This document shows positions 1 to 3,953 of a DNA stretch of 5,560 nucleotides, piece after piece; position 1 is the first letter of the stretch; the number at the start of each line of letters is the position of its first letter. The notes under the pieces are model-generated. The model ran no database searches, was not told the origin of the DNA, and saw only the letters and a program-made list of their open reading frames with translations. The translations under genes were made by a program, and so were the position numbers. The stretch comes from a virus (lineage: Duplodnaviria; Heunggongvirae; Uroviricota; Caudoviricetes). The stretch is from the IMG/VR virus record IMGVR_UViG_2734482785_000015. One strand, given 5' to 3'.

Positions 1-1242
1 ATGGCACGAAAAACCACTCCACTAACCATCACGGAGATCAAAAATGCACGACCAGGAGAAAAAGAATACACCCTGCAGGATGGCGGAGGATTGTTTCTTC
101 TGGTGAAGCCCTCCGGATCAAAAATCTGGCGCTTTACGTATTACCGACCCACTGACAAAAAACGAACCATCGTTAGTCTTGGTCCGCTGAATGATGTTTC
201 TCTGTCAGAAGCCAGAGAGCGACGAAACGAATACAGGGGACTTATAGCGAAGGGAGTTGACCCACAGGACCACGAACGCCGGAAACGTGAAGCAGAGAGC
301 CGGAAAAAGGGCAACACGTTCGAAAAAGTTGCCTCTGACTGGTACGAGATGAAAAAAGGCCAGAATCTCGCTTACAACACGATTAAGGATATCTGGCGAT
401 CCATGGAAAAATACGTATTCCCGTACATCGGAAAAACGCCAATAGATACCCTCACCGCTCGCCGCTTTGTTGAGATACTCACCCCCATTAAGGCGCGTGG
501 CAACCTGGAAACCCTGAAACGCGTTTTACAGCGCATCAATGAGGTGATGGATTTTGCTGCCAACAGTGGTCTGATTGACATCAACACCGCCGCGAACGTC
601 CGTAAGGCATTCCCTACCCCCACCAAAAAGCACATGCCAACCATCCGACCGGAACAGCTACCGCAGCTAATGCACGATTTATCGGTCGCCAGCATAGAAC
701 GGCAAACCAGATTGCTGATTGAGTGGCAGCTACTGACCGTAGCACGCCCCGCCGAAGCAGCCGCCACACGCTGGGAAGAAATAAACCTCGATGCCGAAAC
801 CTGGACGATTCCAGCCGGACGCATGAAGATGCGCCGTGACCATGTGATCCCCCTTTGTGGTCAGGCTATGGCTGTACTGGAAACCATGAAGCCAATCAGC
901 GCACACAGGGAACACGTTTTTCCCAGCCTTAAAAACCCGATGCTGCCAATGAGCAGCCAGACCGCTAACGCCGCATTGCGCCGGATGGGTTACGCTGGTG
1001 TGCTGGTGTCTCACGGATTACGCGCCATATTCAGCACAGCAGCGAACGAGGAAGGATTCGAACCGGACGTAATCGAGGCCGCGCTCGCACACGTGGACAC
1101 GAACGAGGTAAGGCGAGCATATAACCGAAGTAACTACCTGGAAAAACGTGTAGTACTTATGCGCTGGTGGGGTGAATTTGTGGAAACCGCAGCAACCGGA
1201 GTGACCATAGCCAGTGGTAAAAGGGGTATCCGTGCGGTGTGA
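1..1242 (+). CDS. int: Tyrosine-type site-specific integrase, P4-like family
   Basis: 413-aa ORF from ATG at 1 to TGA at 1240-1242. The N-terminus (MARKTTPLTITEIK...DGGGLFLLVKPSGSKIWRFTYY) is typical of the arm-binding region of P4-type integrases. C-terminal catalytic-type motifs are readable: ARPAE (Arg codon 745-747), HGLR (1012-1023), LAH, and Tyr374 (1120-1122) ten residues after the second His. Confidence 0.93.
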   Translation: MARKTTPLTITEIKNARPGEKEYTLQDGGGLFLLVKPSGSKIWRFTYYRPTDKKRTIVSLGPLNDVSLSEARERRNEYRGLIAKGVDPQDHERRKREAESRKKGNTFEKVASDWYEMKKGQNLAYNTIKDIWRSMEKYVFPYIGKTPIDTLTARRFVEILTPIKARGNLETLKRVLQRINEVMDFAANSGLIDINTAANVRKAFPTPTKKHMPTIRPEQLPQLMHDLSVASIERQTRLLIEWQLLTVARPAEAAATRWEEINLDAETWTIPAGRMKMRRDHVIPLCGQAMAVLETMKPISAHREHVFPSLKNPMLPMSSQTANAALRRMGYAGVLVSHGLRAIFSTAANEEGFEPDVIEAALAHVDTNEVRRAYNRSNYLEKRVVLMRWWGEFVETAATGVTIASGKRGIRAV

Positions 1243-1355
1243 CTGTACAAAAAACCAGTACAACCAGTGCAAACCATGCTAAACCATCGTATAATCGCCT
1301 ATCTCCTCAACAGACAAGGAAAAACCCGACTCATGAGAAATCGAGATTTATTGAA

Positions 1356-1598
1356 ATGGTCTGGCACGAAAAATCATCCAATGTCTGCGGTGAAGGGCTG
1401 CAACTGGCGTTAATGGCAAATCGTGAATTCTGGTCAACATACGATCCGGAAGACAAATCAACAGCCCCCACAAAACACGAGGTAGTCAGTTTTTTACGCT
1501 CGCGTGGCGCATCGAAAAATCTGGCTGAAAGCATCGACAAGGTGCTGAGGCCCACCAGCCTTAAATGTGGTGGGCGACCTAAGAAGTGGAAACGGTAA
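1356..1598 (+). CDS. Hypothetical small protein (80 aa from ATG 1356; frame is open from GTG 1239 giving 119 aa; alternative ATG at 1413)
   Basis: Open frame with reasonable enterobacterial codon choice (ctg, gcg, cgt, gaa, aaa), ending TAA 1596-1598 and followed 5 nt later by a strong intrinsic terminator. No strong Shine-Dalgarno at any candidate start, so the start is uncertain. No family recognised. Confidence 0.4.
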   Translation: MVWHEKSSNVCGEGLQLALMANREFWSTYDPEDKSTAPTKHEVVSFLRSRGASKNLAESIDKVLRPTSLKCGGRPKKWKR

Positions 1599-1603
1599 TC
1601 ACA

Positions 1604-1633
1604 ATAGCGGCCCCTTGCGGTCGCTATTTTTTT
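1604..1633 (+). terminator. Rho-independent terminator (plus strand)
   Basis: Stem ATAGCGGCC (1604-1612) pairs with GGTCGCTAT (1619-1627) with one G-T wobble, around a CCTTGC loop, followed by a T run (1627-1633). The minus-strand reading lacks a U tract, so it is unidirectional. Confidence 0.65.
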
Positions 1634-1660
1634 GCAAAAAGAAAGCGTAATCAATGAGAT

Positions 1661-1703
1661 AAAAAACAGTGAGTACCGTTTTAAAACGGTGAGTACTGTT
1701 TTT
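1661..1703. promoter_or_regulatory. AT-rich imperfect 44-bp palindrome with a perfect 16-bp core and embedded direct repeats, upstream of alpA
   Basis: Perfect palindrome ACCGTTTTAAAACGGT at 1675-1690. Outer arms AAAAAACAGT (1661-1670) and ACTGTTTTT (1695-1703) are complementary. Direct repeats GTGAGTACCGTTTT (1669-1682) and GTGAGTACTGTTTT (1689-1702) sit 20 bp apart. Could be an operator or a weak bidirectional terminator/attenuator; function not determinable from sequence. Confidence 0.5.
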
Positions 1704-1767
1704 CCCGCCCTGCCCTGTTTTACCGTATTTATCACCGGAATACGCCGGATTAACGAGGTAAAACACG

Positions 1768-1974
1768 ATGGAAGTAATCAGAAAAATTCTTACCCGTCAG
1801 GAAGTAAAAAATATTCTGCGCATCAAGGCAGACAGTTCGCTACAGGACATGATCAACGCCGGAAAATTCCCGAAAGGCTTCAAAATCGGTCTGCGTCGTG
1901 TTGGCTGGTATGAAGATGAAGTGCTGGCCTGGCTGAAAGAGCGCGAGGAAGAAGCGCGCGGAACGGCTGCGTAA
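1768..1974 (+). CDS. alpA: AlpA-family (P4 Vis-like, MerR-superfamily HTH) transcriptional regulator / excision activator
   Basis: 68-aa ORF with GAGG (1755-1758) 9 nt upstream of ATG 1768. The translation carries the AlpA-type pattern ILTRQEVKNILRIKADSSLQDMINAGKFPKGFKIGLRRVGWYEDEVLAWL. It lies just downstream of a P4-type integrase, as in P4-like cryptic prophages. Confidence 0.85.
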   Translation: MEVIRKILTRQEVKNILRIKADSSLQDMINAGKFPKGFKIGLRRVGWYEDEVLAWLKEREEEARGTAA

Positions 1975-2120
1975 TGGTGTGAGGCGTAACGCGATGAACA
2001 TAACAAAAAGCGCCCCGTTGCCGGAGCGCCCTTGCGAACAATTAACCTACTGCGCAAAAAATGAATCAGTGCAGTGGGATTATATCAACCGTGTAGCGAA
2101 GCGCCACAATTGCCGGATAA

Positions 2121-2153
2121 CAGGCAAAACAAAGGCCACCTGCTACGGTGGCC
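2121..2153 (-). terminator. Rho-independent terminator (minus strand)
   Basis: GC stem GGCCACC (2134-2140) / GGTGGCC (2147-2153) with a 6-nt loop. On the minus strand it is followed by UUUGUUUUG (complement of 2121-2133). No T run follows on the plus strand. Confidence 0.55.
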
Positions 2154-2256
2154 ATTCGACACAAGCTACACGTTATCCCCAACGCATGAGCATTGCCAAC
2201 AATGCCACATTTGCGGCTGGTGGGCAATGTGATCAGTGTGCTGGCTTGCTGGTGGG

Positions 2257-2451
2257 CTATTCCTGCTCTTTAACATCGTCATGCCGCGATGTTTTCCAGG
2301 TATGCGATCCCATTTTTGTGCGCCTGTACTCTTTTAAGAACTTCTCAAGGGCAAACGCACATGGCGCAAATCTTTCTGATTCATGCTCTATCTTTCTGCG
2401 CCGTCTTTTCCGTGCCGGTGATGGTGTATTGGTTGATTCTTTGTTGGTCAT
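2257..2451 (-). CDS. Questionable small basic ORF (64 aa, KRRRRK-containing) inside the transcribed 3' region of the regulator gene
   Basis: ATG-to-TAG ORF on the minus strand between the regulator stop (2509) and the minus-strand terminator. Weak or absent Shine-Dalgarno (AGG 8-9 nt upstream) and several rare codons (AGA, AGG, ATA, CGG) argue against it; position between a gene and its terminator argues mildly for it. Confidence 0.2.
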   Translation of the reverse strand: MTNKESTNTPSPARKRRRRKIEHESERFAPCAFALEKFLKEYRRTKMGSHTWKTSRHDDVKEQE

Positions 2452-2508
2452 TCTGTGTACCTGTAAAGCAATGCGCCGGAGTTCCTCACACCACGGCGAT
2501 GATAGTTA

Positions 2509-2814
2509 TTATTCTGATTCTTTGGCCTTGCGGCGCTGGAGTTCTTCACGTGCGACGGTGACGAGCTGCCCGATCTCCTCGGCAGCTTTGACTCCGATTT
2601 TTTCCACCTGCGCCAGCGCATCGAGCGAAGAAACCAGGGGATTTTCTCCGCTTCCTTCTGCCTGGCGGCGGGCGATCTCACCGCGCATGGCGGTTACTAT
2701 GAATCCGGCGTTGCTTTCACCGTCCAGTTTTACGGATTCCATGCCTTCAAAAGCATCATGTGGGATACGAATTGAAATCTGTTTTGATTTGTCGTTGATA
2801 GTGTTTTTTGCCAT
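2509..2814 (-). CDS. Putative ribbon-helix-helix (CopG/Arc/MetJ-like) DNA-binding regulator, candidate repressor of the divergent operon
   Basis: Minus-strand ORF. The best start is the ATG at 2812-2814 (101 aa, MAKNTINDKSKQISIRIP...), 6 nt downstream of AGGAGA (complement of 2821-2826). The track start at 2853 adds 13 residues without a ribosome-binding site. The N-terminus KQISIRIPHDAFEGMESVKL...SNAGFIVTAMRGEIARR fits an RHH beta-strand, helix, helix pattern. It diverges from an operator-bearing promoter region. Confidence 0.7.
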   Translation of the reverse strand: MAKNTINDKSKQISIRIPHDAFEGMESVKLDGESNAGFIVTAMRGEIARRQAEGSGENPLVSSLDALAQVEKIGVKAAEEIGQLVTVAREELQRRKAKESE

Positions 2815-2836
2815 GTGCATTCTCCTAAACAAAAGA

Positions 2837-2913
2837 TGTGATTCAGTATACACAAAAAAGAATCACAAAAAATACTTGACCTGTGATTCAGTTAAATTTA
2901 ATTTAAATCACAC
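2837..2913. promoter_or_regulatory. Divergent promoter region with two inverted-repeat operator units
   Basis: Unit 1: TGTGATTCA (2837-2845), 13-bp AT-rich spacer, AGAATCACA (2859-2867). Unit 2: TGTGATTCA (2882-2890), 14-bp spacer, AAATCACA (2905-2912). Plus-strand sigma70-like promoter: -35 TTGACC (2875-2880), 17-bp spacer, -10 TAATTT (2898-2903), overlapping unit 2. Minus-strand -10 TATACT (complement of 2845-2850) overlaps unit 1. Confidence 0.6.
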
Positions 2914-2937
2914 CTCAGTAAGAGGATGTAAACGACA

Positions 2938-2971
2938 ACGCCCCGAACTGTTTGCGGCAGTAGCGGGGCGT
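2938..2971 (+). other. Stable stem-loop in the 5' leader of the Icd-like operon (no U tract)
   Basis: ACGCCCCG (2938-2945) pairs with CGGGGCGT (2964-2971); an inner CTG/CAG pair sits within the loop. It lies between the predicted promoter and the ribosome-binding site of the first gene. It is not followed by a T run, so it is not a canonical intrinsic terminator. Confidence 0.4.
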
Positions 2972-3007
2972 CTAACCACCAACGATAGAAAGCGTATCGA
3001 GGTAGCT

Positions 3008-3214
3008 ATGAGAAATCATACCATACACCCGCAAGGGCGGGACTCGCACAACCTGAATAAATACATCTGGCGTTTTATCGCCCTGAGTACGGCACAACCG
3101 CGCGTGATTACCATCGTGGCCACCAGCGAACAGGAAGCGCGCCAGCAATCTCCTGATGGCTGCGTGATGGTATTCGCCGCCCGTATTCGCCAGGAGGTGC
3201 ACCATGTGCAATAA
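3008..3214 (+). CDS. Icd-like (Ash family) small protein; positional analogue of P4 kil
   Basis: 68-aa ORF with GAGG (2999-3002) 5 nt upstream of ATG 3008. The translation MRNHTIHPQGRDSHNLNKYIWRFIALSTAQPRVITIVATSEQEARQQSPDGCVMVFAARIRQEVHHVQ matches my recollection of the host-cell-division-inhibitor Icd-like proteins of P4-like prophages. It is the C-terminal in-frame part of the artefactual 1979-3214 track ORF. Confidence 0.8.
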   Translation: MRNHTIHPQGRDSHNLNKYIWRFIALSTAQPRVITIVATSEQEARQQSPDGCVMVFAARIRQEVHHVQ

Positions 3215-3665: not shown

Positions 3666-3953
3666 ATGAAACAGAAAAATTCTGGCTTTACTGCCAGCGG
3701 CCCCGCTCGGTCTGAAATCCGCCCCGGCGATATTTTCAAAGATAACTACGGCGGCACGATAACGATAAAAGACGTGGAAGAACGGCGCATCACCTACCGT
3801 CGTGAAGGCTACGACTATGACTGCGTGATGCCTGTTTATCAGTTCCGGCGTGATTTTAAGCTGGTGGGCCATCGTAAAGCCGTAAATCAGAAACGTGCAG
3901 CAAGCTATATCCGCAAAATCCGTGAAATGCTGGTCGCAGGGGGTAAGAAATGA
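3666..3953 (+). CDS. Hypothetical protein (95 aa), tentatively DUF4222-like
   Basis: ATG 3666 lies 5 nt after the previous stop; the TGA stop at 3951-3953 overlaps the ATG of the downstream replication gene (ATGA). The motif ITYRREGYDYDCVMPVYQFRRDF resembles small proteins seen upstream of primases in enterobacterial P4-like islands; this is recollection only. Confidence 0.6.
   Translation: MKQKNSGFTASGPARSEIRPGDIFKDNYGGTITIKDVEERRITYRREGYDYDCVMPVYQFRRDFKLVGHRKAVNQKRAASYIRKIREMLVAGGKK

What the first reader, a model, noticed from the sequence alone, without database searches (positions are those of the whole stretch)
1661..1703. Large AT-rich palindrome with embedded 20-bp-spaced direct repeats just upstream of alpA
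A perfect 16-bp palindrome ACCGTTTTAAAACGGT sits inside complementary arms AAAAAACAGT / ACTGTTTTT, and the same span holds two direct copies of GTGAGTAC(C/T)GTTTT exactly 20 bp apart. It lies between the upstream terminator and the alpA start, roughly 65-105 bp before ATG 1768. AlpA-family proteins control excision and induction of P4-like and PICI-type islands, so this is a strong candidate for the site where a host or helper-phage signal gates island activation. As RNA it could instead fold as a weak AU-rich attenuator hairpin flanked by U runs on both strands.
Basis: seen in the sequence. Interest (0 to 1): 0.5.

Follow-up and report, generated by a model that had tools for sequence, protein, structure and literature searches.

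The report
Tandem operator sites upstream of alpA
Just upstream of alpA, the gene that switches on a phage-parasitising island of E. coli, lie two conserved side-by-side 20-bp symmetric sites that look like docking sites for a regulatory protein, so they are a good handle on the still unknown signal that wakes the island, but they are an ordinary kind of feature.

Summary
Its robust core is a 20-bp tandem direct repeat (1663-1682 and 1683-1702, 18/20 identical), not the palindrome. Each unit is a dyad, AAAAC-N-GT-N4-AC-N-GTTTT. The perfect 16-bp palindrome is only the junction of the two units. It is not rare by chance and is not conserved.

The window is the left end of an E. coli PICI-type satellite island: int, a small ORF, a terminator, alpA, then a primase. 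Between two island lineages whose synonymous sites are close to or at saturation (pS 0.55-0.80), the dyads stay 85-95% identical, while the flanking non-coding DNA falls to 30-55%. The promoter-proximal unit keeps both half-sites in all 53 IMG/VR copies. The distal unit varies, is degenerate in two, and is cleanly deleted in three.

The dyads sit between an intrinsic terminator and a conserved promoter/leader block with no recognisable -35. They are therefore most likely tandem protein-binding operator sites that control the alpA promoter. That promoter is already known to be auto-activated by AlpA and induced by helper phage.

Which protein binds is unresolved. Comparative evidence slightly favours a lineage-specific factor other than AlpA. 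An RNA attenuator is unlikely. This is a new member of a known kind, of moderate interest.

The parts
1603..1633 (+). Intrinsic terminator that ends the int/small-ORF transcription unit and insulates alpA.
   Evidence: a 10-pair stem at 1603-1628 followed by a T run; related lineages have a different hairpin sequence (AAAGCGGCAGAAATGCCGCTTTTTTT) at the same place, so the structure is kept while the sequence is not.
1663..1682 (.). O1, the distal 20-bp dyad unit, AAAACAGTGAGTACCGTTTT.
   Evidence: Allele survey: the half-sites AAAAC.GT and AC.GTTT are kept. The central 4 bp and the N of each pentamer vary freely. The unit is degenerate in 2 IMG/VR copies and cleanly deleted in 3 (2 IMG/VR contigs and E. 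coli VG35A2).
1683..1702 (.). O2, the promoter-proximal 20-bp dyad unit, AAAACGGTGAGTACTGTTTT.
   Evidence: Both half-sites are invariant in all 53 IMG/VR copies of the lineage and in the 6 E. coli loci. This stretch is 85-95% identical between lineages in which pS is 0.55-0.80.
1675..1690 (.). The perfect 16-bp palindrome, which is the junction of O1 and O2.
   Evidence: It is perfect only in window-type alleles; the others read ACCGTTTAAAAACGGT.
1704..1715 (.). Spacer of variable sequence but constant length between the dyads and the proximal block.
   Evidence: 55-65% identity and no indels between lineages.
1716..1767 (+). Conserved proximal block. It holds TGnTTTACCGTATTT (1716-1730), CCGG-N6-CCGG (1735-1748) and the Shine-Dalgarno GAGG (1755-1758). 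It presumably contains the core promoter, the transcription start and the leader.
   Evidence: 90-95% identity. The CCGG pair is shared with many enterobacterial alpA loci. P4 vis has a CCGG...CCGG in the same region and an identical ATTAACGAGGTA. No sigma-70 consensus match was found.
1768..1974 (+). alpA, encoding a 68-aa winged-helix regulator/excisionase-family protein.
   Evidence: PF05930; phrog_66, excisionase and transcriptional regulator; PDB 8c3t, an AlpA-family protein, E = 4e-5.
1356..1598 (+). orfS, an 80-aa lineage-specific protein that co-occurs strictly with the dyads. It is a candidate binder only.
   Evidence: homologues exist only in dyad-bearing islands; pN/pS 0.22; a three-helix AF2 model, pLDDT 76; no significant fold match.

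Best explanation
The element is a pair of tandem, dyad-symmetric protein-binding sites, O1 and O2. Together they form the upstream control module of the alpA promoter in one lineage of E. coli PICI-type satellite islands.

Proposed mechanism. A sequence-specific protein binds as a dimer to each unit. It reads the AAAAC.GT half-sites and ignores the central 4 bp and the N of each pentamer. The units are 20 bp apart, which puts two dimers on roughly the same face of the helix. O2 abuts a core promoter that lacks a -35 element, and the bound protein switches alpA transcription on. O1 is an auxiliary, cooperative site. AlpA then drives excision and the island cycle.

I commit to the binder being a lineage-specific trans-acting activator other than AlpA, most plausibly supplied or induced by the helper phage. 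In this model AlpA's own positive feedback acts through another part of the region.

Status of each step:
- Shown: the anatomy, the conservation, the copy-number variation, and the position between the terminator and the conserved promoter/leader block.
- From the literature: PalpA is auto-activated, and it is induced by helper phage partly without AlpA.
- Inferred: protein binding, dimer geometry, activation rather than repression, and the identity of the binder.

The general claim (a protein operator that controls alpA transcription) I put at about 0.75. The specific claim (a non-AlpA activator) I put at about 0.35, which is the confidence given.
For: 1. Selection. The dyads are 85-95% identical between the window lineage and the L002/L003 lineages. 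The non-coding DNA just upstream (1601-1660) is 30-55% identical and the spacer is 55-65%. Synonymous sites of the flanking genes differ at 55-80%.
2. The pattern of constraint fits protein contacts. The half-sites are invariant, the centre and the N positions are free, and O2 never varies in 53 IMG/VR copies.
3. Position. The element lies after an intrinsic terminator. It sits a fixed distance upstream of a conserved block that has no sigma-70 -35/-10 consensus, as expected for an activator-dependent promoter.
4. Known biology. alpA promoter fusions are activated by AlpA and by helper phages lambda and phi80, with the inducer unknown (PMC6092414). In EcCIMP1, helper induction persists in an alpA deletion (PMC11773190).
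5. Dissociation from AlpA. L008 and L218 have identical HTH-wing cores and L011 differs by one V-to-I change, yet their upstream repeats differ (ACTTCCA against CCCTCAC). L215 has a divergent core but shares ACTTCCA. Window-type and L002/L003-type AlpA differ at about 8 positions of that core yet share the dyads.
6. Precedent. In P4, the alpA homologue vis sits behind a promoter with a TGT-N12-ACA dyad (seen at 9150-9133). From my own knowledge, this is the site of the helper activator Ogr and of P4 Delta; PMC8628076 supports only that Ogr and Delta activate P2 and P4 late genes. P4 shares the ATTAACGAGGTA leader with this window.
7. Other alpA lineages also carry lineage-specific paired repeats or palindromes, often about two helical turns apart.
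Against: - No phage record or viral contig carries the same dyad outside this island lineage. No E. coli genome has a second copy of it. A phage DNA-binding activator would be expected to have cognate sites in its own genome.
- The only activator of PalpA identified so far is AlpA. The dyads are the only conserved block in the usual activator position, upstream of the promoter.
- Winged-helix excision factors can bind with little sequence consensus (RdfS, PMC11963761). This weakens the argument that an invariant AlpA cannot read differing repeats.
- The transcription start is unmapped, so the promoter geometry is a guess.
- The repeats seen in other lineages were individually significant in only 4 of 25 sequences tested, plus a few marginal cases.
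Confidence: 0.35

Rival explanations
1. The dyads are AlpA's own binding sites. AlpA molecules occupy the four AC-N-GT/A-tract sites, spaced 9-11 bp apart, and activate PalpA. This would be the cis element of the known positive autoregulation.
For: - AlpA activates its own promoter in EcCICFT073 and EcCIMP1.
- The dyads are the only conserved block upstream of the core promoter.
- Related winged-helix excision factors bind arrays spaced about one helical turn apart and need little consensus (PMC7498355 abstract; PMC11963761).
- A fifth ACCGT sits in the invariant block at 1722-1726.
Against: - AlpA sequence and upstream repeat motif are dissociated in both directions.
- The half-sites are arranged head to head as a dyad, whereas such factors usually bind head to tail.
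- The half-site is not enriched elsewhere in the related island or at its att arms.
- The element that tracks the AlpA clade is the proximal CCGG pair, not the dyads.
Confidence: 0.3
2. The dyads are operators of a repressor that keeps alpA silent. The repressor is either the lineage-specific small protein orfS encoded just upstream (or the small basic protein at 2257-2451) or a host protein. The helper phage would act by removing it.
For: - orfS and the 64-aa minus-strand protein occur only in dyad-bearing islands.
- orfS lies next to the sites and has a perfect TATAAT at 1290-1295.
- It is under purifying selection (pN/pS 0.22).
- It models as a three-helix bundle with a basic GGRPKKW tail.
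- A half-site-like ACCGT lies in the presumed -10 region, and O2 would overlap the -35 region.
Against: - Physical linkage explains the co-occurrence equally well.
- EcCICFT073 has no ORF between int and alpA. Its PalpA reporter is still low in the reported non-lysogenic strains, so no island repressor seems to be needed there. Whether those strains lack the island is my assumption.
- No known host-factor consensus fits.
Confidence: 0.12
3. The element acts through DNA architecture rather than through a specific regulator. Its phased A/T tracts would bend the DNA, act like an UP element, or nucleate H-NS or IHF, which silence or tune the promoter.
For: - GC content is 33% at 1661-1703 against 51% for the window.
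- A/T tracts recur every 20 bp.
- H-NS binds and represses an alpA promoter in Shewanella CP4So (PMC5148205).
- An IHF-like match with one mismatch lies at 1649-1661.
Against: - The invariant positions include the G/C bases of AC.GT, while the AT-rich DNA just upstream is free to diverge.
- No H-NS or Fis motif matches.
- The IHF-like site is not kept in the other lineages.
Confidence: 0.08
4. The element works as a nucleic-acid hairpin: an attenuator, terminator or processing site in RNA, or a cruciform in DNA.
For: The 56-nt stretch folds at -17.4 kcal/mol, z = -4.8. The terminator scan flags 1674-1691. 95% of pair cells stay paired across 12 alleles.
Against: - The pairing follows automatically from the dyad symmetry.
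- Only one pair shows changes on both sides, and the counts are not beyond the shuffles in a meaningful way.
- Changes at the N positions break pairs without compensation.
- There is no U tract after the extended stem.
- The alleles with O1 deleted lose the main hairpin.
- The element lies downstream of a real terminator and probably upstream of the transcription start.
- No Rfam family matches.
Confidence: 0.05
5. The element is a neutral tandem duplication with no function.
For: The copy number varies between one and two. The two units tend to carry the same central bases within an island, which suggests homogenisation by slippage or conversion.
Against: The conservation far exceeds that of the flanking non-coding DNA and of synonymous sites. 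O2 is invariant in every copy.
Confidence: 0.03

Closest known systems
Bacteriophage P4 late promoter PLL, upstream of vis (the alpA homologue). It is activated by P2 Ogr or P4 Delta through a TGT-N12-ACA dyad centred near -55.
   Same: Both are satellite elements. In both, a dyad-symmetric site lies about 70-120 bp upstream of the alpA-family gene, in front of a weak promoter that a helper-linked activator turns on. The P4 leader shares CCGG...CCGG and an identical ATTAACGAGGTA with the window. Vis and AlpA are distant homologues (35% identity over 37 residues).
   Different: The site sequence is unrelated: there is no TGT-N12-ACA in 1600-1767. Here there are two tandem units rather than one. 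Nothing Ogr/Delta-like was annotated in the related island, but no targeted search was run. The known helpers of E. coli PICIs are lambdoid or P22-like phages, which, from my own knowledge, drive late genes by antitermination rather than with such an activator. The role of TGT-N12-ACA is my own knowledge plus the sequence check, not tested here.
PalpA of the Gram-negative PICIs EcCICFT073 and EcCIMP1
   Same: The gene order is the same: int, alpA, a YlcI/Icd-like module, DUF4222, primase. That promoter region is activated by AlpA and induced by helper phage. Both islands also carry conspicuous repeats or a palindrome upstream of alpA.
   Different: Their AlpA proteins belong to other clades and their upstream sequences are unrelated to these dyads. 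No cis element has been mapped in either island in the papers I read, so there is nothing to compare site by site.
Tandem operators of dimeric phage regulators, such as the lambda or 434 OR sites
   Same: Both have short dyad sites with conserved outer half-sites and free central bases. Both are placed side by side about two helical turns apart at a promoter (comparison from my own knowledge).
   Different: No repressor/Cro-type gene is adjacent. The sequence matches no operator I could test. There are two sites, not three.
PrdfS of ICEMlSymR7A, the promoter of an excision-factor gene, controlled by the activator FseA through an inverted repeat
   Same: The promoter of a winged-helix excision-factor gene is switched on by a separate activator that binds an inverted repeat upstream of the -35 (figure legend in PMC11963761).
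   Different: The element, the host and the sequences are all unrelated. This is an analogy only.

Membership tests
Gram-negative PICI (phage-inducible chromosomal island) | int and alpA co-oriented at the left end, followed by a replication (primase) module. | tested here: met
   int at 1-1242, alpA at 1768-1974, DUF4222 at 3666-3953 and a DUF927 primase from 3950.
Gram-negative PICI (phage-inducible chromosomal island) | A small island (about 10-20 kb) with its own att site, no virion or lysis genes, and packaging-redirection genes such as terS. | tested here: met
   Tested on the closest relative, L001 (window 1-2373 is 99.96% identical). The 16-bp direct repeats TTTTTAGCTACACGTT lie 14.4 kb apart, next to tRNA-Pro/yejM. 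A terS gene is annotated, and no capsid, tail or lysis genes are. The right part of the window's own island is not in the window.
Gram-negative PICI (phage-inducible chromosomal island) | Induction, excision and packaging depend on a helper phage. | not testable with these tools
   This needs experiments.
AlpA family (Pfam PF05930) | A profile match above the curated cutoff. | tested here: met
   33.3 bits against a cutoff of 21, E = 4.5e-8. PDB 8c3t, an AlpA-family protein, matches at E = 4e-5.
Transcription-factor operator at PalpA | Sequence conservation above the neutral background, concentrated in symmetric half-sites. | tested here: met
Transcription-factor operator at PalpA | Protein binding, and an effect on transcription. 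| not testable with these tools
   This needs EMSA or footprinting and reporter mutagenesis.
Intrinsic terminator / attenuator | A G+C-rich stem directly followed by a U tract, with compensatory changes in the stem. | tested here: not met
   The inner stem has 3 G-C pairs. The U run is part of the outer stem, not a tail. There is no convincing covariation.
P2 Ogr / P4 Delta activator site | A TGT-N12-ACA dyad upstream of the promoter. | tested here: not met
   No match in 1600-1767. The dyad is present in P4 itself.
SlmA-binding site (GTGAGTACTCAC) | Both half-sites of the 12-bp palindrome. | tested here: not met
   GTGAGTACTGTT matches 9 of 12 positions and the second half-site is absent. In relatives the GAGT centre varies to GGGT, TATA or GGGA.
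LexA, lambda CII, CRP, Fis, H-NS and IHF sites | A match to the consensus. | tested here: not met
   The only near hit is an IHF-like sequence with one mismatch at 1649-1661. It lies outside the element and is not conserved.
Excision-factor (RDF) binding array | Direct repeats about one helical turn apart, also present at the att arm. | tested here: inconclusive
   The AC-N-GT pentamers are spaced 9, 11 and 9 bp, but their flanks alternate in orientation. There is no significant similarity to the att arms of the related island and no half-site enrichment.
Integrase arm-type sites | Repeats shared with the att arms. | tested here: not met
   The att arms of the related island carry TAGCTA repeats. 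The P4 arm repeats read TTGGGGGCAYAT. Neither resembles the dyad.
Pseudomonas aeruginosa AlpA antiterminator system | A Q-like antiterminator protein (DNA-contact residues numbered up to 142), with the AlpA-binding element GGGACG between -35 and -10. | tested here: not met
   The protein here has 68 residues and a different fold class. There is no GGGACG in the region. The two share a name only.

The most novel reading that the evidence does not exclude
The dyads are the operators of orfS, a constitutively expressed, lineage-specific small protein encoded just upstream. orfS would be a master repressor of alpA, the first counterpart in a Gram-negative PICI of the Stl repressors of staphylococcal islands. 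A helper-phage protein would have to inactivate it. The orfS-terminator-dyad cassette would then be an exchangeable helper-sensing module.
Probability: 0.12. Interest if true: 0.7.

Novelty: new member of a known kind. Interest (0 to 1): 0.4.

Why it matters
How a helper phage switches on Gram-negative PICIs has been open since 2018. It is known that the phage raises alpA transcription and that AlpA then amplifies itself. In the papers I could search, neither the phage inducer nor any cis element of the alpA promoter has been defined.

The element is a short, sharply conserved pair of sites found in about 7% of complete E. coli genomes (374 of 5,426 have a match to the region containing it). 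It gives a concrete target for mutagenesis and a bait for pulling down the binding protein. Natural one-unit alleles already exist as ready-made variants.

If each island lineage carries its own upstream repeats while the AlpA reading head stays the same, this module may also set which helper phages an island responds to.

Tried and rejected
- Known host or phage site consensus sequences (LexA, CII, Ogr/Delta, CRP, Fis, H-NS, SlmA, the P. aeruginosa AlpA element): none fits. The SlmA resemblance (9 of 12) disappears in relatives.
- The same site in phage genomes: blastn against 50,697 phage records found only chance 18-mers. The exact O2 pattern in IMG/VR found 53 island copies plus 8 unrelated single hits in low-GC contigs. 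The generic tandem-dyad pattern found otherwise only coding 9-nt repeats.
- A second copy elsewhere in E. coli genomes: none.
- Similarity between the alpA upstream region and the att arms, testing whether AlpA acts here as an excision factor: not above shuffles. The half-site AAACNGT is not enriched in the related island (13 observed against 9.2 expected).
- Lambda Xis sites: only a loose resemblance by eye (CTGTTTTTT). Not pursued.
- Integrase arm sites: the repeats are different.
- K-mer enrichment across alpA upstream regions: not above the null.
- RNA families: no Rfam match at the element. The CCGG hairpin shows no covariation because it is invariant.
- Variable ORFs between int and alpA in other lineages: no Pfam families. 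They are probably cargo.
- The core promoter could not be located by consensus, so all promoter geometry is provisional.

Full report
**1. What the window is**

The 5,560-base window is the left end of an Escherichia coli satellite island of the PICI type.

| Feature | Coordinates | Evidence |
|---|---|---|
| P4-type tyrosine integrase | 1-1242 | |
| orfS, an 80-aa ORF with no family | 1356-1598 | |
| Terminator-like hairpin with T run | 1603-1633 | |
| alpA (PF05930, 33.3 bits against a cutoff of 21) | 1768-1974 | |
| Two small minus-strand genes | 2257-2451, 2509-2814 | |
| Rightward operon: Icd-like gene, two small ORFs, DUF4222, DUF927 primase | from 3008 | |

- The closest complete genome, strain MB06102 (locus L001), is 99.96% identical over 1-2373. 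It carries a different module at 2374-3169.
- In L001 the island is 14.4 kb long and is bounded by the 16-bp direct repeats TTTTTAGCTACACGTT, next to tRNA-Pro/yejM.
- It carries terS, SSB and PerC-like genes and no virion genes.
- A match to 1580-1770 is present in 374 of 5,426 complete E. coli genomes.

**2. The observation**

- The anatomy is better stated as two tandem 20-bp units, 1663-1682 and 1683-1702, which are 18/20 identical.
- Each unit is itself a dyad, AAAAC-N-GT-N4-AC-N-GTTTT.
- The 16-bp perfect palindrome at 1675-1690 is simply where the two units meet.
- In 300 first-order Markov resamples of the window, a perfect palindrome of 16 bp or more appeared 34 times. A 20-mer repeated at 18/20 identity with a period of 20-30 bp never appeared; the best was 16.

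The tandem repeat is therefore the statistically solid feature, not the palindrome.

**3. Comparative evidence**

I collected related loci from three sources:

- five E. coli islands whose upstream region is 80-85% identical;
- 33 loci from a scan of 185,579 species genomes for AlpA relatives, 15 of them enterobacterial islands with an AlpA 62-72% identical;
- 68 viral-contig loci, 53 of which belong to the dyad-bearing lineage.

*Footprint.* Identity between the window lineage and the L002/L003 lineages changes sharply along the region:

| Window region | Identity |
|---|---|
| 1601-1660 | 30-55% |
| 1661-1700 (the dyads) | 85-95% |
| 1701-1720 | 55-65% |
| 1721-1780 | 90-95% |

- Synonymous sites of the flanking genes differ at 55-80% (orfS pS 0.80, alpA 0.55, int 0.59). 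The pN/pS ratios are 0.19-0.31.
- Neutral positions are therefore heavily diverged between these lineages (synonymous sites differ at 55-80%), yet the dyads are kept.

*Pattern of constraint.* Across 12 distinct two-unit alleles, the invariant positions are the A tract, the C, the GT and their mirror images. The N of each pentamer takes A, G or T on the left and C or A on the right. The central four bases vary freely: GAGT, GGGT, GGAT, TATA, TCTA, GGGA.

*Unequal units.* O2, next to the promoter, keeps both half-sites in every copy. O1 varies, is degenerate in two alleles, and is missing as an exact 20-bp deletion in two IMG/VR contigs and in E. coli VG35A2. These deletions arose on two different AlpA backgrounds, and alpA remains intact.

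*The perfect palindrome.* It exists only in window-type alleles. Most relatives read TTTAAAAA at the junction.

**4. Position relative to the promoter**

- The element lies between a terminator and a conserved block. The terminator's sequence differs between lineages but its hairpin and T run are kept.
- The conserved block at 1716-1767 holds TGnTTTACCGTATTT, a CCGG-N6-CCGG pair (1735-1748) and the ribosome-binding site.
- The spacer between O2 and this block varies in sequence but not in length.
- No sigma-70 consensus promoter is detectable in 1600-1767. This fits a promoter that needs an activator.
- The transcription start is unknown.
- By analogy with P4, the start would lie a few bases upstream of the CCGG pair. 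From my own knowledge, the Ogr/Delta dyad sits near -55. In P4 I found TGT-N12-ACA upstream of vis, followed by a CCGG...CCGG leader and the same ATTAACGAGGTA.
- That would put O2 near -40 and O1 near -60. This geometry is an inference.

**5. What is known about this promoter**

- In EcCICFT073, AlpA is an activator. It activates its own promoter. Overexpressing it alone induces the island.
- In EcCICFT073, lambda and phi80 lysogens induce alpA transcription independently of SOS. The phage inducer was not identified (PMC6092414).
- In EcCIMP1, a -449 to +50 alpA reporter is induced by helper phage Kapi1. It is still induced, though less, in an alpA deletion (PMC11773190).
- I found no paper that maps a cis element or an AlpA binding site in a PICI.
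- The P. aeruginosa protein called AlpA is an unrelated, larger Q-like antiterminator and is not a guide here.

**6. Who binds?**

This could not be settled.

| Locus | AlpA HTH-wing core | Upstream repeat |
|---|---|---|
| L008, L218 | identical to each other | ACTTC(C)A |
| L011 | differs by one V-to-I change | CCCTCAC |
| L215 | divergent | ACTTCCA |
| Window type and L002/L003 type | differ at about 8 core positions | the same dyads |

What tracks the AlpA clade is instead the proximal CCGG pair.

*For AlpA.*
- It is the only activator of this promoter identified so far.
- The dyads are the only conserved block in an activator position.
- Related winged-helix excision factors can bind with little consensus.

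*Against a phage DNA-binding inducer.* The dyad occurs nowhere else. It is absent from 50,697 phage records and from viral contigs outside the island lineage. No E. coli genome has a second copy.

*For an island-encoded binder.* orfS and the 64-aa minus-strand protein occur only with the dyads. orfS is a selected gene with a perfect -10 hexamer and a three-helix model. Linkage explains the co-occurrence just as well, and no DNA-binding signature was found.

**7. Rival readings**

- *RNA hairpin.* The fold is stable, but that follows from the dyad symmetry. It lacks a trailing U tract, shows no convincing compensation, and is lost in the alleles with O1 deleted.
- *Pure DNA architecture or H-NS.* There is a precedent in Shewanella. 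However, the constrained positions include G/C bases, while the neighbouring AT-rich DNA drifts.
- *Integrase arm sites and excision-factor sites at att.* These do not match.

**8. Generality**

- Other alpA lineages also carry their own paired repeats or palindromes in the same region.
- Examples are two AAAACTTCCA 21 bp apart, two AGCACTGTAT 25 bp apart, three 22-bp repeats in E. albertii, a 35-bp palindrome in EcCIMP1, and 10-bp phased ACAAC repeats in EcCICFT073.
- Only four of 25 lineages reach clear significance individually. The best periods cluster at 17-22 bp in 14 of 25.
- This hints at a modular, lineage-specific input element in front of a conserved alpA leader. It is a lead, not a result.

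**9. Verdict**

The finding is a real, selected cis element. It is most likely a pair of tandem operator sites that control the alpA promoter (about 0.75).

| Binder or mechanism | Estimate |
|---|---|
| A non-AlpA activator, probably linked to the helper phage | 0.35 |
| AlpA itself | 0.30 |
| A repressor such as orfS | 0.12 |
| Architecture, RNA hairpin or neutral duplication (together) | about 0.16 |

It is a new member of a known kind of feature. It is of moderate interest because it makes an open question about PICI induction directly testable.

Noticed in passing
window 1735-1760: A CCGG-N6-CCGG pair followed by ATTAACGAGGTA lies just before the alpA start. The CCGG pair is kept in most enterobacterial alpA loci of this clade. 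P4 vis has a CCGG...CCGG and the identical 12-mer. It may be a 5'-leader hairpin or the true AlpA site. The pair is invariant, so covariation cannot decide.
   Followed up: partly
window 1253-1295: Four AACCA(G/T) repeats at 1253, 1262, 1272 and 1282 (spacing 9-10 bp) run into a perfect TATAAT at 1290-1295, right after the int stop. This is the likely orfS promoter. Similar phased AAAC-type arrays followed by CGTATAAT occur after int in other lineages, and six ACAAC repeats occur in EcCICFT073.
   Followed up: partly
window 1356-1598: orfS is an 80-aa protein found only in this island lineage of E. coli. It is under purifying selection (pN/pS 0.22) and models as a three-helix bundle with a basic GGRPKKW tail. 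No family or fold assignment was possible.
   Followed up: yes
window 2837-2912: The divergent intergenic region holds four WATCACW heptads: TGTGATT at 2837 and 2882, AATCACA at 2861 and 2906. They surround a promoter-like TTGACC-17-TAATTT at 2876-2904, next to a YlcI/YnfO-family gene whose N-terminus looks like a ribbon-helix-helix. This is probably a separate repressor/operator switch for the replication operon.
   Followed up: no
window 2374-3169: This regulatory module is replaced by unrelated sequence in the otherwise near-identical island of strain MB06102. The island is therefore mosaic at this point.
   Followed up: partly
window 2257-2451 (minus strand): A 64-aa, very basic protein (PARKRRRRK; phrog_21027, unknown function) is convergent with alpA. 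Homologues were found only in the dyad-bearing islands.
   Followed up: no
window 2006-2033 and 2134-2153 (minus strand): Two terminator-like hairpins lie downstream of alpA on the minus strand. A weak, sub-threshold Rfam match to isrD lies at 2128-2170 (22.4 bits against a gathering score of 37, E = 0.43).
   Followed up: no
window 1649-1661: An IHF-like sequence, AATCAATGAGATA, with one mismatch to WATCAANNNNTTR, sits just upstream of the distal unit. It is not kept in the other lineages.
   Followed up: partly
window 1589-1602: A third, inverted partial copy of the repeat (GAAACGGTAATCAC, two mismatches to GTGAGTACYGTTTT on the minus strand) overlaps the orfS stop codon. The other lineages read differently here, and coding constraint probably explains it.
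   Followed up: partly
L001 14352-14441 and 28630-28749: In the related island the att core is TTTTTAGCTACACGTT. Five TAGCTA-containing repeats lie between the core and int. CGGTA(C/T)CGG and ATAAC(A/G)G repeats lie on the attR side. These are likely integrase and excision-factor sites.
   Followed up: no
L271 2440-2500 (EcCIMP1) and L021 2801-2870: EcCIMP1 has a 35-bp palindrome, AAAGACCGCAATATG-TTTTT-CATATTGTGGTCTTT, about 90-125 bp upstream of its alpA. An E. albertii island has three tandem 22-bp repeats upstream of alpA.
   Followed up: no
window 1979-3214: The 411-aa plus-strand ORF listed mechanically here overlaps the real minus-strand and plus-strand genes. It is almost certainly not a gene.
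   Followed up: no
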